Sequence record: PP445229.1
Origin: Escherichia phage EC.W2-6
Reading direction: 5' to 3' (one strand)
DNA: 64,000 nt
In this document: in pieces, positions 6,938 to 10,241 of the stretch
Position numbering within the stretch: the stretch's first letter is position 1
Layout: every line of letters begins with the position of its first letter
Program-made: the position numbers and the translations under genes
The notes under the pieces: generated by a model
Database searches by the model: none
Told to the model about the DNA's origin: nothing
What the model saw: only the letters and a program-made list of their open reading frames with translations

Positions 6938-7471
6938 ATGAGTTTACTAGGAAGTGTTGAACTGCACGATGTAATTGACAATGGCTATCTGGATGCGGAG
7001 CATAAGTATGTTAACGCTGCTAGTGTGGATATCCGTATTGGTGATACTATCCTTGTTGAAGAACAGGCTGATGGCATCGTTGATATTGATGCGAAAGAGA
7101 ATCTTCAGTGGAAGGAAGTAAAGATTCCTGAAGAGGGTTTGGTTATCACTCCGGGTCAGTTCTTCTTGGCTCACTCTATGGAGGAGTTTAATCTTCCAGA
7201 TAACATCTCAAGTCTGTTTGTTCTGCGTTCATCTATGGCTCGTTGTGGTTTGAACCATCTCCACGCTGGGTGGGCAGACGCAGGGTTTAATAGCAGTAAG
7301 CTGACATTTGAATTCCATAACGTAACCAAGCATCATAGCTTACGAGTTCGTGCTGGTATGCGTGTTGGTCAGATGGTTATGTTTGAGCACTCTCATGCAG
7401 GGGAGCACTCCTATGCAGTGAAGGGTCGTTATAATAACTCTGAAGGTGTAGTTGCATCTAAAGGTGTGTAA
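6938..7471 (+). CDS. dcd: dCTP deaminase
   Basis: ASVDIRIGD, VLRSSMARCGL, AGWADAGF, RAGMRVGQMVMFE and C-terminal GVVASKG align with Dcd-family motifs. Confidence 0.8.
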   Translation: MSLLGSVELHDVIDNGYLDAEHKYVNAASVDIRIGDTILVEEQADGIVDIDAKENLQWKEVKIPEEGLVITPGQFFLAHSMEEFNLPDNISSLFVLRSSMARCGLNHLHAGWADAGFNSSKLTFEFHNVTKHHSLRVRAGMRVGQMVMFEHSHAGEHSYAVKGRYNNSEGVVASKGV

Positions 7472-7669
7472 ATGAAAAAGTGGATTGTTCGTGTACATGA
7501 TAACACGACTGGAGAGTTAGTAGCTGTAGATTTTGTTAAGACTCGAGAGCACGCACGTAGGGTCAAAAATCAATACAAATCTACTTTTAGACTTAATAAG
7601 GTTACACTAGGAAAAGCTATCGTGAATAGTGAAGGTGCTTTTTGTGTTAACAGTAAGGTTTATTATTAA
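7472..7669 (+). CDS. small protein, paralog 1 of a tandem triplet
   Basis: 65 aa; shares N-terminal Trp, central basic helix and C-terminal KVxYY with the next two ORFs. Confidence 0.55.
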   Translation: MKKWIVRVHDNTTGELVAVDFVKTREHARRVKNQYKSTFRLNKVTLGKAIVNSEGAFCVNSKVYY

Positions 7670-7878
7670 TGAGACCGATCACTATGAGACAATTTTGGTT
7701 AGCAAAGATTAAGTGGGCATCAGGTGGTATGACTATGACTGCACTACTCACTCGTCAACAGGCTCGAGATTTTAAAAAGTCTATGTTCAATGTAGACTTA
7801 ACTAAGAGCATCAGTATTCATAAGGCCAAGGAGTATTCTTCTGGTCGTGTTTATATCAGCGGAAAGGTACATTACTAA
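7669..7878 (+). CDS. small protein, paralog 2 of a tandem triplet
   Basis: 69 aa; TAATG start/stop overlap; ends GKVHY. Confidence 0.55.
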   Translation: MRPITMRQFWLAKIKWASGGMTMTALLTRQQARDFKKSMFNVDLTKSISIHKAKEYSSGRVYISGKVHY

Positions 7879-8087
7879 TGAAAAAGATGTGGGCTATTCA
7901 TGTTGTTTGGGATCTTGAGCAACACATGAGAAAAGATAACATCAAATTGTTTGACACTCGCAAAGAGGCTCGTATTGCTAAGAAACAGTTGAAGACTCTG
8001 GGCACAATAGTAAAAAGCGCTGACATACATCGCTGGTATGAAGACCCTAACACTGGTTCTTTTATGTCTAAAGTAATTTACTACTGA
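7878..8087 (+). CDS. small protein, paralog 3 of a tandem triplet
   Basis: 69 aa; TAATG overlap; ends SKVIYY. Confidence 0.55.
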   Translation: MKKMWAIHVVWDLEQHMRKDNIKLFDTRKEARIAKKQLKTLGTIVKSADIHRWYEDPNTGSFMSKVIYY

Positions 8088-8111
8088 TTGGTAGTAGATA
8101 TGATAACTCTC

Positions 8112-8120
8112 AAATGTATA
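8112..8120 (+). promoter_or_regulatory. possible phage-sigma promoter element (AAATGTATA variant)
   Basis: One-mismatch variant of the TAATGTATA element about 40 nt upstream of the 8160 start. Confidence 0.3.
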
Positions 8121-8159
8121 TAGAGTACAATAAGAATTTGTATTTTACAGGAGAGAGTT

Positions 8160-8489
8160 ATGTTAGATTTGAGTAAAGTGGCCCCGCCCACTGAAGAGAT
8201 TACAAAATCCAAGGTGATGCAACAGTTTTATCATCGTGATATGCTTGGTCGCTTTATCAAGAATCGTGATGTTGTTGCTTGGTCTATTGGTAATCAGGGA
8301 TATCTGTTGAAGGTTCTTCAGGTTACAGGCTCAACTGCTAAGCGAGTTAAGGTGTATGACCCTGAAATGGGGCGTTCTAAGTCAGTAGACCCACAGAACT
8401 GCATCGTAATTACCCAGCAGGTAATGGATAATATTGCACGTAACGTTGCTAACTCAGTTGAACTTGATGGAGAAAACCCAAATGCATAA
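8160..8489 (+). CDS. hypothetical protein (109 aa)
   Basis: ORF with GGAGAG Shine-Dalgarno; AATGTATA promoter-like element about 40 nt upstream. Confidence 0.5.
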   Translation: MLDLSKVAPPTEEITKSKVMQQFYHRDMLGRFIKNRDVVAWSIGNQGYLLKVLQVTGSTAKRVKVYDPEMGRSKSVDPQNCIVITQQVMDNIARNVANSVELDGENPNA

Positions 8490-9045
8490 GAATGTTTTTG
8501 ATTTACCTGAGATTGGTCGTGACAGTTATAGTATGTTAGACCGGTCTGATCTTTCAATCTCTCGCCTTGAAACAATGCAAGGCATGATTAGTGCAAACAG
8601 CCTAGAACACATCCTGAGCTGCTTACAAGCTAACATGGAACTATTGCATATCAAAGCTAAAAACTACCACTGGAACGTCTCTGGTGCAGGATTTCAGGGT
8701 GTCCATGGTATGTTTGATGAGCTGGAAGATTACGCACGACAGGTAGGAGATCGTATTGCTGAACGTATGCGTTACCACTGTGTTAAAGTGGATGCTACAG
8801 CAGCTAATTATCTTTCTCATGCTTGGTTCTCAGAGGGGAATGCTGATCTAGACATGGACGGTATGCTCTCTGATATGTGCATGACCTTGATGTGTATTAT
8901 TGAGAAGATGGATGAGTTTGATGGTGATTTAGCCTCCCACCCTGTCGATCAGAGTATGCTTCAAGAAATTAATGAAGGTCTTGGCAAGTATTGCTACTTC
9001 GTCAAGAGCAACATGTCCCATTCAAGTGGTGACGTGTCTTACTAA
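8482..9045 (+). CDS. Dps-like ferritin-family protein (DNA-binding ferroxidase-like)
   Basis: KAKNYHWNVSGAGFQGVHGMFDE and DRIAER resemble the Dps ferroxidase-site helices; C-terminal KYCYFVKSN resembles the Dps KFLWFIESN segment; start at ATG 8482 with GGAG 10 nt upstream. Confidence 0.7.
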   Translation: MHKNVFDLPEIGRDSYSMLDRSDLSISRLETMQGMISANSLEHILSCLQANMELLHIKAKNYHWNVSGAGFQGVHGMFDELEDYARQVGDRIAERMRYHCVKVDATAANYLSHAWFSEGNADLDMDGMLSDMCMTLMCIIEKMDEFDGDLASHPVDQSMLQEINEGLGKYCYFVKSNMSHSSGDVSY

Positions 9046-9105
9046 AACCTCCGCCCTGTCTCCTAACCCGAGGTGGGGCGAACTTATTTATAAGGATATA
9101 GATAT

Positions 9106-9285
9106 ATGTTATCAGCAATCGTATGGGGTATTTGGGCTATCTTTATTGGTGGTGGTATTTATTGGGCTTCTGGTAAGCTTATTGAAGAAACTCCTGATAA
9201 GAAAGGTGAAATTCAAACAGCATCAACCATCATGGTTATTGTAGCTGTTGTTATCCCGTTCCTACTTCACCTCCTGACTGCATAA
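9106..9285 (+). CDS. small membrane protein (59 aa, two predicted TM helices)
   Basis: Not in the ORF track (below 60 aa); AAGGA Shine-Dalgarno 9 nt upstream; two hydrophobic segments separated by a charged loop. Confidence 0.5.
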   Translation: MLSAIVWGIWAIFIGGGIYWASGKLIEETPDKKGEIQTASTIMVIVAVVIPFLLHLLTA

Positions 9286-9293
9286 GGATTTAC

Positions 9294-9569
9294 ATGTCTA
9301 AAGTAATTAAGTTTTATAGCGATCAGTGTGCTCCATGTAAAGCAATGGCTCCTACCTTTGAGAAGGTTGTTAAGGAGTTTGATGTAGAAGTGGAAGAGAT
9401 TAACATCCTTGAAGGTGATGGTCGTGAACAAGCTGTTAAGTATGGTGTACGAAGTATCCCTGCTTTCGTTGTGCCTGACCGTAACAGTGGTGCGCACTAC
9501 AGCCTCTCCGGTATGCAGACTGAAGCAAACCTGAAAGCATTTTTGGACACAGCCCTGAGAAATAAGTAA
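9294..9569 (+). CDS. thioredoxin
   Basis: CAPC active site in a ~90-aa thioredoxin-fold-sized protein with the cis-Pro context (IPAF). Confidence 0.75.
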   Translation: MSKVIKFYSDQCAPCKAMAPTFEKVVKEFDVEVEEINILEGDGREQAVKYGVRSIPAFVVPDRNSGAHYSLSGMQTEANLKAFLDTALRNK

Positions 9570-9584
9570 TAAGGATATTCACGG

Positions 9585-10241
9585 ATGAATGAACAACTAC
9601 AAGCAACATTAATCGAAGCTATGGGAAGTGATCGTAGCGTAGTAAACGCAGCTCGAGTTTCCTTTGGCGTAACCCGTGAAGGTGATTTAAATGAACGTGA
9701 TGAACGTCTCATCAACTTTCTCGCAAGAGAGAAGCATGTTACCCCATTCCGACACCCGCAAGTCAGTTTCCGATGCAAAGCACCTATCGCAATTGCGAGA
9801 CAGCTGGGCAAGCATCAGGTTGGATTCTCGTGGAACGAAATGTCCCGGCGGTATAAAGATGGAGCAGTTGAAGTCTTCATCCCTAAAGAGATTTTTGCGA
9901 GACCTTCGGACCTCCATGCAGGTTCAGGGATTCAACTCATCGACGGAGAGCGAGCTGAAGCATTAATGCTGATTAATGATGCATATGAAGCTTCTCTAGC
10001 AGCATATGACAAGTTGATTGAATTTATTGCACCAGAGCAGGCTCGATTTGTTCTTCCTCAGGGGATGATCACTGAGTGGGTGTGGACTGGTTCTTTGTAT
10101 GGCTGGTTTGAGTTGTGCCGTCAGCGACTCTCCTCTCACGCTCAATATGAAGTTCGAGTGTTTGCTAAATCTCTAGATGAAGAGATGGCTAAACTCTACC
10201 CAATCTCGTGGGCAGCTCTGAAGAAAACTTTGGAGAGTTAA
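9585..10241 (+). CDS. thyX: ThyX-like flavin-dependent thymidylate synthase family protein (divergent signature motif)
   Basis: ARVSF, CKAPIAIARQ, SWNEMSRRY and SSHAQYEVR are collinear with ThyX blocks as I recall them; the canonical RHR is KHQ here. Confidence 0.65.
   Translation: MNEQLQATLIEAMGSDRSVVNAARVSFGVTREGDLNERDERLINFLAREKHVTPFRHPQVSFRCKAPIAIARQLGKHQVGFSWNEMSRRYKDGAVEVFIPKEIFARPSDLHAGSGIQLIDGERAEALMLINDAYEASLAAYDKLIEFIAPEQARFVLPQGMITEWVWTGSLYGWFELCRQRLSSHAQYEVRVFAKSLDEEMAKLYPISWAALKKTLES

What the first reader, a model, noticed from the sequence alone, without database searches (positions are those of the whole stretch)
6938..10241. Nucleotide-pool remodelling genes including a ThyX homolog with altered signature motif
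Seen: dCTP deaminase (6938-7471), thioredoxin, and a ThyX-like protein in which the position of the ThyX RHR signature reads KHQ (CKAPIAIARQLGKHQVGFSWNEMSRRY). A HAD-like hydrolase, metallophosphoesterase and Dnk-like dNMP kinase lie further along the arm (17340-23077). Established: the RHR-S motif contacts dUMP and flavin in ThyX. Inference: either a tolerated variant or a change of substrate; together with a dNMP kinase this gene set is of the kind phages use when they alter thymidine or cytidine in their DNA.
Basis: partly seen in the sequence, partly recalled or inferred. Interest (0 to 1): 0.55.

Follow-up and report, generated by a model that had tools for sequence, protein, structure and literature searches.

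The report
Ordinary phage thymidylate-supply genes, variant ThyX motif
The genes are real, but they form an ordinary module that converts dCTP into dTTP for an AT-rich coliphage, and the "altered" ThyX motif (KHQ instead of RHR) is the normal signature of a large ThyX subfamily that bacteria also use as a housekeeping enzyme, so it is not a sign of exotic DNA.

Summary
The window is 100% identical to Escherichia phage EC.W8-1 (Kuravirus, phiEco32-like). The ThyX triad reads KHQ where T. maritima has R78-H79-R80, followed by a one-residue insertion.

The variant is not special to this phage. KHQ occurs in 119 of the 120 closest homologues. Among 126 distant representatives, 63 have KHQ and only one has RHR. 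The subfamily signature is [KR]-[HS]-x-[VI]-G-x3-[NS]-E-x-S-R-R-Y.

All residues tied to dUMP binding and catalysis are kept (H53, Q75, E86, S88, R90, Y91, R147, R174). The model has the ThyX fold (pLDDT 95.9, TM about 0.8), and dN/dS is 0.08.

KHQ-type ThyX genes also lie in housekeeping neighbourhoods of Spirochaetia (next to pyrD/pyrF), Nitrospinaceae, Chloroflexota and Poribacteria. In other phages they sit with RNR and DNA-replication genes.

The genome avoids palindromes strongly, and DNA of a related Kuravirus is cut by EcoRV in vitro. The best reading is a dCTP → dUMP → dTMP → dTTP supply line for a 42% GC genome.

One puzzle remains. Published work finds these phages unexplainedly resistant to restriction-modification systems, so a hidden DNA modification is not excluded, though it is unlikely to involve ThyX.

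The parts
6938..7471 (+). dCTP deaminase (Dcd), possibly the bifunctional dUMP-forming type
   Evidence: Pfam DCD 3.5e-34. TIGR02274 equivalog above its cutoff. The RSSmaRcGL and catalytic-Glu segments align with solved Dcd structures. The best PDB hits are 4xjc and 2qxx (6e-15, 7e-14), well ahead of E. coli Dcd 1xs1 (7e-8). dN/dS against phage SU7 is 0.07.
9294..9569 (+). Thioredoxin (CAPC active site); its role in the module is not established
   Evidence: Pfam Thioredoxin 2.1e-13. PHROG 22 'thioredoxin domain'. Syntenic in SU7 and Bas90. dN/dS 0.135.
9585..10241 (+). Flavin-dependent thymidylate synthase ThyX, KHQ-type subfamily
   Evidence: Pfam Thy1 1.8e-43. TIGR02170 scores 128.2 against a cutoff of 87.9. 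phmmer 3e-31 to 6j61 and 8e-25 to T. maritima ThyX. AlphaFold2 pLDDT 95.9, and Foldseek TM 0.78-0.83 to T. maritima ThyX structures. dN/dS 0.084.
9810..9854 (+). Variant ThyX signature K76-H77-Q78-V-G-F-S-W-N-E-M-S87-R88-R89-Y90, equivalent to T. maritima R78-H79-R80 ... S88-G89-R90-Y91
   Evidence: Alignments. KHQ is present in 119/120 close homologues and in 63/126 distant representatives. K/R at the first position occurs in 125/126, and R at the position of G89 in 120/126.
22184..23077 (+). Deoxynucleoside monophosphate kinase (P-loop GPPGCGK); the inferred dTMP to dTDP step
   Evidence: PHROG 139 4.6e-55. Only P-loop-level similarity to solved structures. Annotated as dNMP kinase in PQ030848 and Bas90.
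8482..9045 (+). Dps/ferritin-like protein between Dcd and ThyX; membership of the nucleotide module is doubtful
   Evidence: Pfam Ferritin 2.9e-7. NCBIfam Dps 1.5e-8, below its cutoff. PHROG 3636 'DNA binding protein'. dN/dS 0.058.
5567..6928 (+). Pol-beta-type nucleotidyltransferase of unknown substrate, directly upstream of Dcd. BASEL authors flagged it as a possible DNA-modification gene.
   Evidence: PHROG 12715 4e-262. Weak Pfam PolyA_pol head, 7.5e-4 on the longer ORF. No PDB sequence relative. PMC11990801.
18342..18845 (+). Metallophosphoesterase; substrate unknown and no evidence links it to nucleotide pools
   Evidence: Pfam Metallophos 8.5e-5. PHROG 547 1.1e-51.
17340..17732 (+). Small protein with HAD-like DxDxT (DYDDT) and WIDDFP motifs only
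   Evidence: No Pfam hit. PHROG 4919, unknown function. Translation.

Best explanation
This is a conventional phage module that raises the dTTP supply for replicating a 42% GC genome in a host of about 51% GC.

Proposed pathway:
1. The phage dCTP deaminase converts dCTP to dUTP, or directly to dUMP if it is the bifunctional type it most resembles.
2. The phage ThyX methylates dUMP to dTMP using CH2-THF and a reduced flavin. It therefore does not need host ThyA or DHFR.
3. The phage dNMP kinase carries dTMP on towards dTTP.

The KHQX8S motif is not a lesion or a specificity switch. It is the normal signature of a large ThyX subfamily.
- Lys76 keeps the positive charge that Arg78 points at flavin N1/C2=O.
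- His is retained.
- The loss of Arg80 goes together with a near-invariant Arg at the position of Gly89 (S-R-R-Y). That side chain can reach the dUMP phosphate pocket.

Shown: gene identities, fold, residue conservation, subfamily distribution, cellular housekeeping contexts, purifying selection. Inferred: the enzymatic activities, the bifunctionality of Dcd, the R80/R89 compensation and the role of thioredoxin.
For: Identity
- The window equals Kuravirus phage EC.W8-1, and the module is syntenic in SU7 and Bas90.

ThyX membership
- Pfam and TIGR equivalog scores are above their cutoffs. The fold matches T. maritima ThyX with TM about 0.8 at pLDDT 95.9.
- The residues corresponding to H53, Q75, E86, S88, R90, Y91, R147, R174, Q180 and E182 are present in the query and ≥95% conserved (several invariant) across 126 distant representatives.

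The motif is a subfamily trait
- KHQ occurs in 119/120 near homologues.
- Among 126 representatives the triad is KHQ 63, KHK 15, RHT 6, RHQ 5, and RHR 1 (a cellular Petrotogaceae protein).
- Inteins are inserted exactly in this motif in three homologues, as is typical of functionally critical sites.

Cellular use
- A genome scan found 48 KHQ loci.
- Those in a Spirochaetia chromosome lie next to dihydroorotate dehydrogenase and OMP decarboxylase/PRTase.
- Those in Nitrospinaceae lie next to AcrB, IspH and MlaA.
- Those in Chloroflexota/Dehalococcoidia lie next to 2-oxoacid dehydrogenase E2/E1 and MFS genes.
- Those in Poribacteria lie next to enolase-superfamily and aminotransferase genes.
- Synteny is conserved between species.

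Other phages
- KHQ ThyX sits with NrdAB, NrdDG, NT5C, MazG, DNA pol A, primase-helicase and DCD/dUTPase.

Selection
- dN/dS is 0.08 for ThyX and 0.07 for Dcd.

Literature
- R78 faces flavin N1/C2=O (PMC11940539).
- The side chain at position 89 can occupy the dUMP phosphate pocket in PBCV-1 ThyX (PMC3498832).
- PBCV-1 uses dCTP deaminase + ThyX to shift dCTP:dTTP from 4.5 to 0.6 for a low-GC genome (PMC10142491).

DNA looks restrictable
- 6-bp palindromes have median O/E 0.76 against 1.00 for other hexamers (p = 5e-10).
- GATC has O/E 0.41, CCWGG occurs 3 times against about 95 expected, and PstI, SacI, KpnI and SphI sites are absent.
- DNA of Kuravirus SR02 gives EcoRV and EcoRI fragment patterns in vitro (PMC11997193).
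Against: - No KHQ-type ThyX has, to my knowledge or in the papers I could search, been assayed biochemically. The one validated phage ThyX I checked (L5 gp48) has the canonical RHR.
- Several positions that I recall as FAD contacts in T. maritima differ in the query (E58R, N163S, R165Y, N169E), so the mode of flavin binding may differ.
- Within the subfamily, the Kuravirus group also departs from the consensus loop W-R...K-Q-G-S, reading I-F...H-A-G-S instead.
- Gordonclarkvirinae are reported to be 'remarkably resistant to RM systems' with no known mechanism (PMC11990801). This window nonetheless contains 34 EcoRV, 8 EcoKI and 107 EcoP1 sites.
Confidence: 0.85

Rival explanations
1. The KHQ-type ThyX has changed chemistry or substrate. 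For example, it might release 5-hydroxymethyl-dUMP instead of reducing the exocyclic methylene, or act on dCMP. Together with the dNMP kinase it would then feed a non-canonical pyrimidine into phage DNA, which would explain the resistance to restriction-modification systems.
For: - Both arginines of the signature triad are replaced, and several presumed flavin contacts differ.
- Gordonclarkvirinae resist RM systems without a known mechanism, even though sites are present (PMC11990801; site counts).
- A dNMP kinase, a metallophosphoesterase and a HAD-like motif protein are encoded on the same arm.
Against: - The same KHQ signature occurs in chromosomal housekeeping ThyX genes of four bacterial phyla, which presumably have ordinary DNA.
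- R174 and R90, which I recall as contacting the uracil carbonyls, are invariant, and an Arg there would not suit the 4-amino group of cytosine.
- H53, S88 and Y91 are kept.
- No downstream modification genes are annotated.
- Strong palindrome, GATC and CCWGG avoidance points to restrictable DNA.
- Kuravirus DNA is cut by EcoRV and EcoRI in vitro.
Confidence: 0.05
2. The phage DNA contains deoxyuridine instead of thymidine, as in PBS1. It would be produced by the dCTP deaminase. This is the suggestion made by the BASEL authors.
For: - A bona fide Dcd sits next to the replication genes, and the RM resistance is unexplained (PMC11990801).
- No separate dUTPase is annotated.
Against: - A thymidylate synthase gene lies 2 kb downstream in the same operon-like array. 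It is conserved across Kuravirus, Suseptimavirus and more distant relatives, with dN/dS 0.08. That makes no sense for a phage that excludes thymine.
- The Dcd most resembles dUMP-forming bifunctional enzymes, which destroy dUTP rather than accumulate it (the functional assignment of 4xjc and 2qxx is from memory).
- No Ugi-like or dTMPase genes are recognised.
Confidence: 0.03
3. The ThyX homologue is catalytically dead or has a moonlighting role, for example as a regulator or a nucleotide binder. Host ThyA would then supply all the dTMP.
For: - The literal RHRX7S signature is not met.
- E. coli already has ThyA, Dcd and Dut (general knowledge).
Against: - Every catalytic or substrate residue tested is conserved across a huge subfamily.
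- Purifying selection is strong.
- The model is confidently ThyX-like.
- Inteins target the motif.
- The gene co-occurs with Dcd/dUTPase and RNR genes in unrelated phages.
Confidence: 0.04

Closest known systems
Canonical flavin-dependent thymidylate synthase ThyX (T. maritima TM0449, T. thermophilus Thy1, M. tuberculosis ThyX, PBCV-1 A674R)
   Same: Same fold (TM about 0.8) and 30-34% identity. It has the same H53, Q75, E86, S88, R90, Y91, R147, R174, Q180 and E182. It scores above the curated thyX equivalog cutoff.
   Different: The signature triad is KHQ rather than RHR. There is one extra residue (V-G) before the first Ser, so the motif reads KHQX8S rather than RHRX7S. Position 89 is Arg instead of Gly or Gln. 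Several positions I recall as FAD contacts differ (E58R, N163S, R165Y, N169E).
PBCV-1 chlorovirus pyrimidine reprogramming (dCMP/dCTP deaminase A596R + ThyX A674R + dUTPase)
   Same: A low-GC virus in a higher-GC host encodes its own deaminase and ThyX to shift the dCTP:dTTP ratio. The shift was measured as 4.5 to 0.6 during infection (PMC10142491).
   Different: It is a eukaryotic giant virus. Its ThyX matches the query only weakly (phmmer 1.7e-7); its own motif was not examined. Its deaminase is a different, dual dCMP/dCTP enzyme. The GC gap here is smaller (42% against about 51%).
Bifunctional dCTP deaminase:dUTPase (M. tuberculosis 2qxx, B. halodurans 4xjc, M. jannaschii 1ogh)
   Same: These are the best sequence matches of the phage Dcd among solved structures, with a shared Ser/Arg/Glu catalytic framework.
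   Different: Bifunctionality cannot be read from the sequence with the tools used. The PDB molecule names say only 'dCTP deaminase' for 4xjc and 2qxx, and their dUMP-forming activity is from my memory of the literature.
Thymidine or cytidine replacement systems (T4 gp42/gp1/gp56, SPO1 dUMP hydroxymethylase, ViI/M6 hypermodification, PBS1 dU-DNA)
   Same: They also combine a pyrimidine-C5 enzyme, a dNMP kinase and deaminases at the level of the nucleotide pool.
   Different: Those systems use ThyA-family hydroxymethylases, or no thymidylate synthase at all in PBS1. They also need enzymes that exclude the normal nucleotide, and usually DNA-level transferases. None of these is recognised here (PMC8989533).

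Membership tests
ThyX / flavin-dependent thymidylate synthase (PF02511, TIGR02170) | Full-length match to curated family profiles above their trusted cutoffs | tested here: met
   Pfam Thy1 149 bits against 24.8, covering profile positions 1-190 of 191. TIGR02170 equivalog 128.2 bits against 87.9.
ThyX / flavin-dependent thymidylate synthase (PF02511, TIGR02170) | ThyX fold | tested here: met
   AlphaFold2 pLDDT 95.9, pTM 0.90. The top 50 Foldseek PDB hits are all ThyX, with TM 0.75-0.83 and E down to 3e-18.
ThyX / flavin-dependent thymidylate synthase (PF02511, TIGR02170) | Literal signature motif RHRX7S (Myllykallio 2002, as quoted in PMC2826268) | tested here: not met
   The sequence reads KHQX8S. 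This signature is descriptive and was drawn from early sequences. It also fails for the whole subfamily, including chromosomal bacterial copies. I therefore treat it as too narrow rather than as excluding membership.
ThyX / flavin-dependent thymidylate synthase (PF02511, TIGR02170) | Functional content of the motif: a basic residue facing flavin N1/C2=O (R78), His79, Ser88, Arg90, Tyr91 | tested here: met
   K76, H77, S87, R89 and Y90 are present in the query. The first position is basic in 125/126 representatives, and S88, R90 and Y91 are conserved in 124-125 of the 126. The role of R78 comes from PMC11940539.
ThyX / flavin-dependent thymidylate synthase (PF02511, TIGR02170) | Second-half substrate residues (R147, R174, Q180, E182) and the folate-stacking H53 | tested here: met
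   All are present in the query and ≥97% conserved in the subfamily (R147 and R174 invariant).
ThyX / flavin-dependent thymidylate synthase (PF02511, TIGR02170) | Arg80 contact to dUMP | tested here: not met
   Gln78 occupies this position. In the subfamily it varies (Q, K, T, H, V and others), while Arg at position 89 is found in 120/126. Compensation by R89 is an inference, drawn from the behaviour of PBCV-1 Gln89 (PMC3498832).
ThyX / flavin-dependent thymidylate synthase (PF02511, TIGR02170) | FAD-bound homotetramer; dUMP + CH2-THF + NADPH gives dTMP; complements thyA | not testable with these tools
   This needs protein purification and genetics.
dCTP deaminase (TIGR02274 / PF22769) | Profile match above cutoff and the catalytic Ser-Arg...Glu framework | tested here: met
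   TIGR02274 107.7 bits against 92.8. RSSmaRcGL and ...ltfEfhN align with solved Dcd enzymes.
dCTP deaminase (TIGR02274 / PF22769) | Bifunctional (dUMP-forming) as opposed to monofunctional (dUTP-forming) | tested here: inconclusive
   It is closer to 4xjc and 2qxx (about 1e-14) than to E. coli Dcd (7e-8), but no diagnostic residue was tested.
Phage thymidine/cytidine replacement or hypermodification systems | ThyA-family pyrimidine hydroxymethylase or another base-modifying enzyme, plus DNA-level transferases (glycosyltransferase, 5-HMUDK, aGPT-Pplase and similar) | tested here: not met
   None is annotated in EC.W8-1 (record positions 1-30,000), or in the syntenic early/replication arms shown for Bas90 and SU7. 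None appeared among the roughly 30 proteins I scanned. The BASEL authors report no known modification pathway. This evidence is at the level of annotation and is not exhaustive.
Phage thymidine/cytidine replacement or hypermodification systems | Non-canonical base present in virion DNA | not testable with these tools
   Indirect evidence points against a blanket modification: palindrome avoidance, and in vitro EcoRV/EcoRI digestion of a related Kuravirus.
PBS1-type dU-DNA phages | Absence of thymidylate synthesis, with dTTP excluded | tested here: not met
   A conserved ThyX under purifying selection is present.

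The most novel reading that the evidence does not exclude
Kuravirus and other Gordonclarkvirinae DNA may carry a partial or unusual covalent modification that has not yet been detected. It would originate in this replication-linked nucleotide module: the Dcd, the adjacent nucleotidyltransferase of unknown substrate, and conceivably a KHQ-ThyX side activity. It might also involve the neighbouring ATP-grasp/amidoligase gene cluster. Such a modification would explain the published, unexplained resistance to type I-III restriction-modification systems despite abundant recognition sites.
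Probability: 0.06. Interest if true: 0.75.

Novelty: already known. Interest (0 to 1): 0.17.

Why it matters
This mainly prevents a false lead. A deviation from the textbook RHRX7S signature in a phage ThyX should not be read as evidence for exotic DNA chemistry.

Two modest points are still worth keeping.

1. The classical ThyX motif does not describe a very large clade that is rich in phages but also present in cells. Of the 126 nearest cluster representatives, only one has RHR. At least one published ThyX phylogeny filtered sequences by that motif (PMC2826268), so this clade may be under-represented in evolutionary and inhibitor-design work.

2. A conserved thymidylate synthase argues against the published suggestion that Gordonclarkvirinae replace thymidine by deoxyuridine. 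The resistance of these phages to restriction-modification systems therefore still needs another explanation.

Tried and rejected
- I looked for a biochemically validated KHQ-type ThyX. Mycobacteriophage L5 gp48, which I recall as experimentally validated, has the canonical RHR, so it gives no direct support.
- I tried to read the primary papers on ThyX mutagenesis (PMC2258874), the folate site (PMC3465422) and phiEco32 (PMC2587145, PMC3275717). None is held. The roles of R80 and of the FAD-contact residues therefore rest partly on secondary statements and on my memory.
- One literature search was wasted by loose term matching.
- I checked whether an RHT-type relative on a 559-kb contig was informative.
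- The thaumarchaeal KHQ locus (L040) turned out to lie beside a clamp and a PriCT-2 primase, which suggests a mobile element or virus. I did not count it as cellular.
- Sequence searches of the PDB for the nucleotidyltransferase and for the 'anti-restriction nuclease' ORF gave nothing usable.
- The dS values against SU7 are near saturation for ThyX (1.98), so the dN/dS ratios are rough.

Full report
**What the window is**

The 3.3-kb region is 100% identical, at the same coordinates, to Escherichia phage EC.W8-1 (PQ030848.1; Gordonclarkvirinae, Kuravirus). It is 97% identical to phiEco32 and about 60 other coliphages. In GenBank the genes are already annotated as dCTP deaminase and thymidylate synthase ThyX. 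They sit on the + strand arm that also holds primase-helicase, a split family-A DNA polymerase, ligase, PhoH, a sigma factor and a dNMP kinase.

**Checking the observation**

- Dcd, 6938-7471: Pfam 3.5e-34; TIGR02274 above its cutoff.
- Thioredoxin, 9294-9569: 2.1e-13, with a CAPC motif.
- ThyX, 9585-10241: Pfam 1.8e-43; TIGR02170 equivalog 128 bits against a cutoff of 88.

HMMER alignments to solved ThyX structures place K76-H77-Q78 opposite T. maritima R78-H79-R80, followed by one extra residue. The classical RHRX7S signature therefore reads KHQX8S.

Further along the arm, the metallophosphoesterase and the dNMP kinase are supported. The 'HAD-like' protein rests only on a DYDDT/WIDDFP motif.

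**Is KHQ peculiar?**

No. Among the 120 closest cluster representatives (down to 54% identity), 119 carry KHQ and one carries KSQ. An exhaustive HMMER search of 1.84 billion representatives gave 6,914 hits, 347 of them below 1e-30.

I took the 126 non-intein proteins among the best 150. Their triads are KHQ 63, KHK 15, RHT 6, RHQ 5, RST 4, a scatter of others, and RHR exactly once. That single RHR protein belongs to cellular Petrotogaceae.

The subfamily signature is ARQ-x-x-[KR]-[HS]-x-[VI]-G-x-x-x-[NS]-E-x-S-R-R-Y.
- The first position is basic in 125/126.
- The third position is free.
- The inserted Gly is present in 118/126.
- Arg replaces Gly89 in 120/126.

Three homologues have inteins inserted exactly inside this motif (...HN|SWNE.S.RY), which is typical of functionally critical sites.

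**What is conserved**

In T. maritima numbering, H53, P56, F57, H59, Q75, E86, S88, R90, Y91, E144, R147, R174, Q180 and E182 are invariant or nearly so across the subfamily. All are present in the query.

According to the literature I could read:
- R78 points at N1/C2=O of the reduced flavin (PMC11940539). A Lys there is a conservative replacement.
- R78, R80, S88 and R90 hydrogen-bond dUMP (PMC3498832).
- In PBCV-1 ThyX the side chain at position 89 can occupy the dUMP phosphate pocket.

From this I infer that the near-invariant R89 of this subfamily substitutes for the lost R80. This is an inference, not a result.

Positions that I recall as FAD contacts differ (E58R, N163S, R165Y, N169E), so details of flavin binding may differ. 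The Kuravirus group also departs from the subfamily's W-R...K-Q-G-S loop, reading I-F...H-A-G-S. I cannot assign a consequence to that.

An AlphaFold2 model built on a 62-sequence alignment has pLDDT 95.9. It matches T. maritima ThyX structures with TM 0.78-0.83.

**Cellular copies**

A scan of one genome per GTDB species used the pattern [VIL]ARQ[LIW]xKHQ[VIT] and found 48 loci. Several lie on long contigs among housekeeping genes.
- A Spirochaetia chromosome and a second Spirochaetaceae MAG share synteny. The ThyX there (47% identical to the query) is followed by dihydroorotate dehydrogenase and OMP decarboxylase/phosphoribosyltransferase.
- Nitrospinaceae MAGs: neighbours are AcrB, HlyD, IspH and MlaA.
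- Chloroflexota/Dehalococcoidia: neighbours are 2-oxoacid dehydrogenase E2/E1β and MFS genes, and the synteny is conserved.
- Poribacteria: neighbours are an enolase-superfamily gene and an aminotransferase.

All of these carry KHQVGLxWNE[VI]SRRY. Cells with ordinary DNA therefore use this type, once inside a pyrimidine-biosynthesis neighbourhood. I could not check that these genomes lack thyA.

**Context in other phages**

KHQ-type ThyX lies with class I and class III ribonucleotide reductases, NT5C, MazG and ligase in a 98-kb phage contig. In 53-55-kb phages it lies with primase-helicase, DNA pol A, 5'-3' exonuclease, ligase and DCD/dUTPase, and one of those phages also carries ArdA. This is the usual company of a thymidylate synthase.

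**Selection**

Against Suseptimavirus SU7, where the module is syntenic, dN/dS values are:
- ThyX 0.08
- Dcd 0.07
- Dps-like protein 0.06
- Thioredoxin 0.14

dS is close to saturation for ThyX and the Dps-like protein, so the ratios are rough.

**Does the DNA look modified?**

There is no direct test here. Indirect evidence argues against blanket protection by a modified base.
- Six-base palindromes are systematically avoided: median O/E 0.76 against 1.00 for other hexamers, Mann-Whitney p = 5e-10.
- Twelve palindromes are absent altogether, including PstI, SacI, KpnI and SphI sites.
- GATC has O/E 0.41, and CCWGG occurs 3 times where about 95 are expected.

By established reasoning on restriction avoidance, this is the signature of DNA that restriction enzymes can see. 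In addition, genomic DNA of Kuravirus SR02 gave distinct EcoRV and EcoRV+EcoRI fragment patterns (PMC11997193), and phiEco32 termini were mapped by restriction profiling (PMC9965538).

[quoted passage not shown] It speculates about dU-DNA on the basis of the Dcd and the adjacent nucleotidyltransferase (PMC11990801). This window still holds 34 EcoRV, 8 EcoKI and 107 EcoP1 sites. That puzzle is real. However, a conserved, selected thymidylate synthase 2 kb downstream of Dcd is hard to reconcile with replacing thymidine by deoxyuridine.

**Mechanism proposed**

1. Dcd deaminates dCTP. Its best solved relatives are 4xjc and 2qxx, which I recall as bifunctional dUMP-forming enzymes. If it is monofunctional, host Dut supplies the dUMP.
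2. ThyX converts dUMP to dTMP with CH2-THF and reduced flavin. This regenerates THF and so needs no DHFR (family knowledge).
3. The dNMP kinase phosphorylates dTMP.

The net effect is to move the pyrimidine pool from C towards T for a 42% GC genome in a host of about 51% GC. The same has been measured for PBCV-1 with its own deaminase and ThyX (PMC10142491). The roles of the thioredoxin and the Dps-like protein are not established.

**Verdict**

The finding is ordinary and the genes are already annotated.

Two residual points have modest value. The textbook RHRX7S motif misses a large ThyX clade, and one published phylogeny filtered on that motif. The unexplained RM resistance of this phage group also remains open, and ThyX is an unlikely explanation for it.

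Noticed in passing
window 10638-10871 (+): A 77-aa ORF directly downstream of ThyX matches PHROG 4452 'anti-restriction nuclease' (E 1.9e-31). It is annotated that way in SU7 and Bas90. It has no solved relative. It may bear on the unexplained RM resistance of Gordonclarkvirinae.
   Followed up: partly
window 5567-6928 (+): A 453-aa nucleotidyltransferase (PHROG 12715; weak PolyA_pol head domain) lies between the DNA polymerase exonuclease subunit and Dcd. It has no PDB sequence relative and a long C-terminal region. My alignment to the SU7 orthologue gave only 25% amino-acid identity, while its neighbours are 79-93% identical. The substrate is unknown.
   Followed up: partly
window 7472-7669, 7669-7878, 7878-8087 (+): Three tandem paralogous small ORFs (65-69 aa) all match PHROG 4939 (unknown function). 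They lie between Dcd and the Dps-like gene, and each ends in ...K/GKVxYY.
   Followed up: no
window 681-1883 and 2585-3004 (+); continues beyond the window in the phage record: An ATP-grasp RimK-like ligase (PHROG 2599, 2e-185) and a gene that the Bas90 annotation calls gamma-glutamyl cyclotransferase. In Bas90 the adjacent genes are a GlmS-like amidotransferase, an 'amidoligase' and a 'COOH-NH2 ligase'. Together they form a peptide/amide-ligase gene cluster with an unknown target.
   Followed up: no
whole window: GATC is strongly depleted (121 against about 297 expected), and CCWGG is almost absent (3 against about 95). Twelve 6-bp palindromes are absent. EcoRV (34 sites) and CAGCAG (88 against 47) are over-represented.
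   Followed up: yes
homologues P0122, P0135, P0187 (not in the window): Inteins are inserted exactly inside the ThyX signature motif (...VVHN|SWNE.S.RY). The motif's first serine, or a cysteine in P0187, is the +1 residue.
   Followed up: no
window 8482-9045 (+): A Dps/ferritin-like protein is conserved inside the replication/nucleotide arm (dN/dS 0.06). GenBank annotates it variously as 'integrase' or 'DNA-binding protein'; the 'integrase' label looks wrong.
   Followed up: partly
window 20691-21131 and 21795-22187 (+): A Macro-domain protein (3.3e-11) and a SLOG/YAcAr-family protein lie immediately upstream of the dNMP kinase. This hints at handling of ADP-ribose or nucleotide derivatives.
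   Followed up: no
window 5008-5565 and 14347-16191 (+): The family-A DNA polymerase is split into a separate 3'-5' exonuclease gene and a polymerase gene about 9 kb apart. The nucleotide-metabolism genes lie between them.
   Followed up: no
ThyX residues 103-114 (window about 9891-9926): The Kuravirus group replaces the subfamily's conserved loop W-R-x-R-P-x-N-x-K-Q-G-S by I-F-A-R-P-S-D-L-H-A-G-S. The consequence is unknown.
   Followed up: partly
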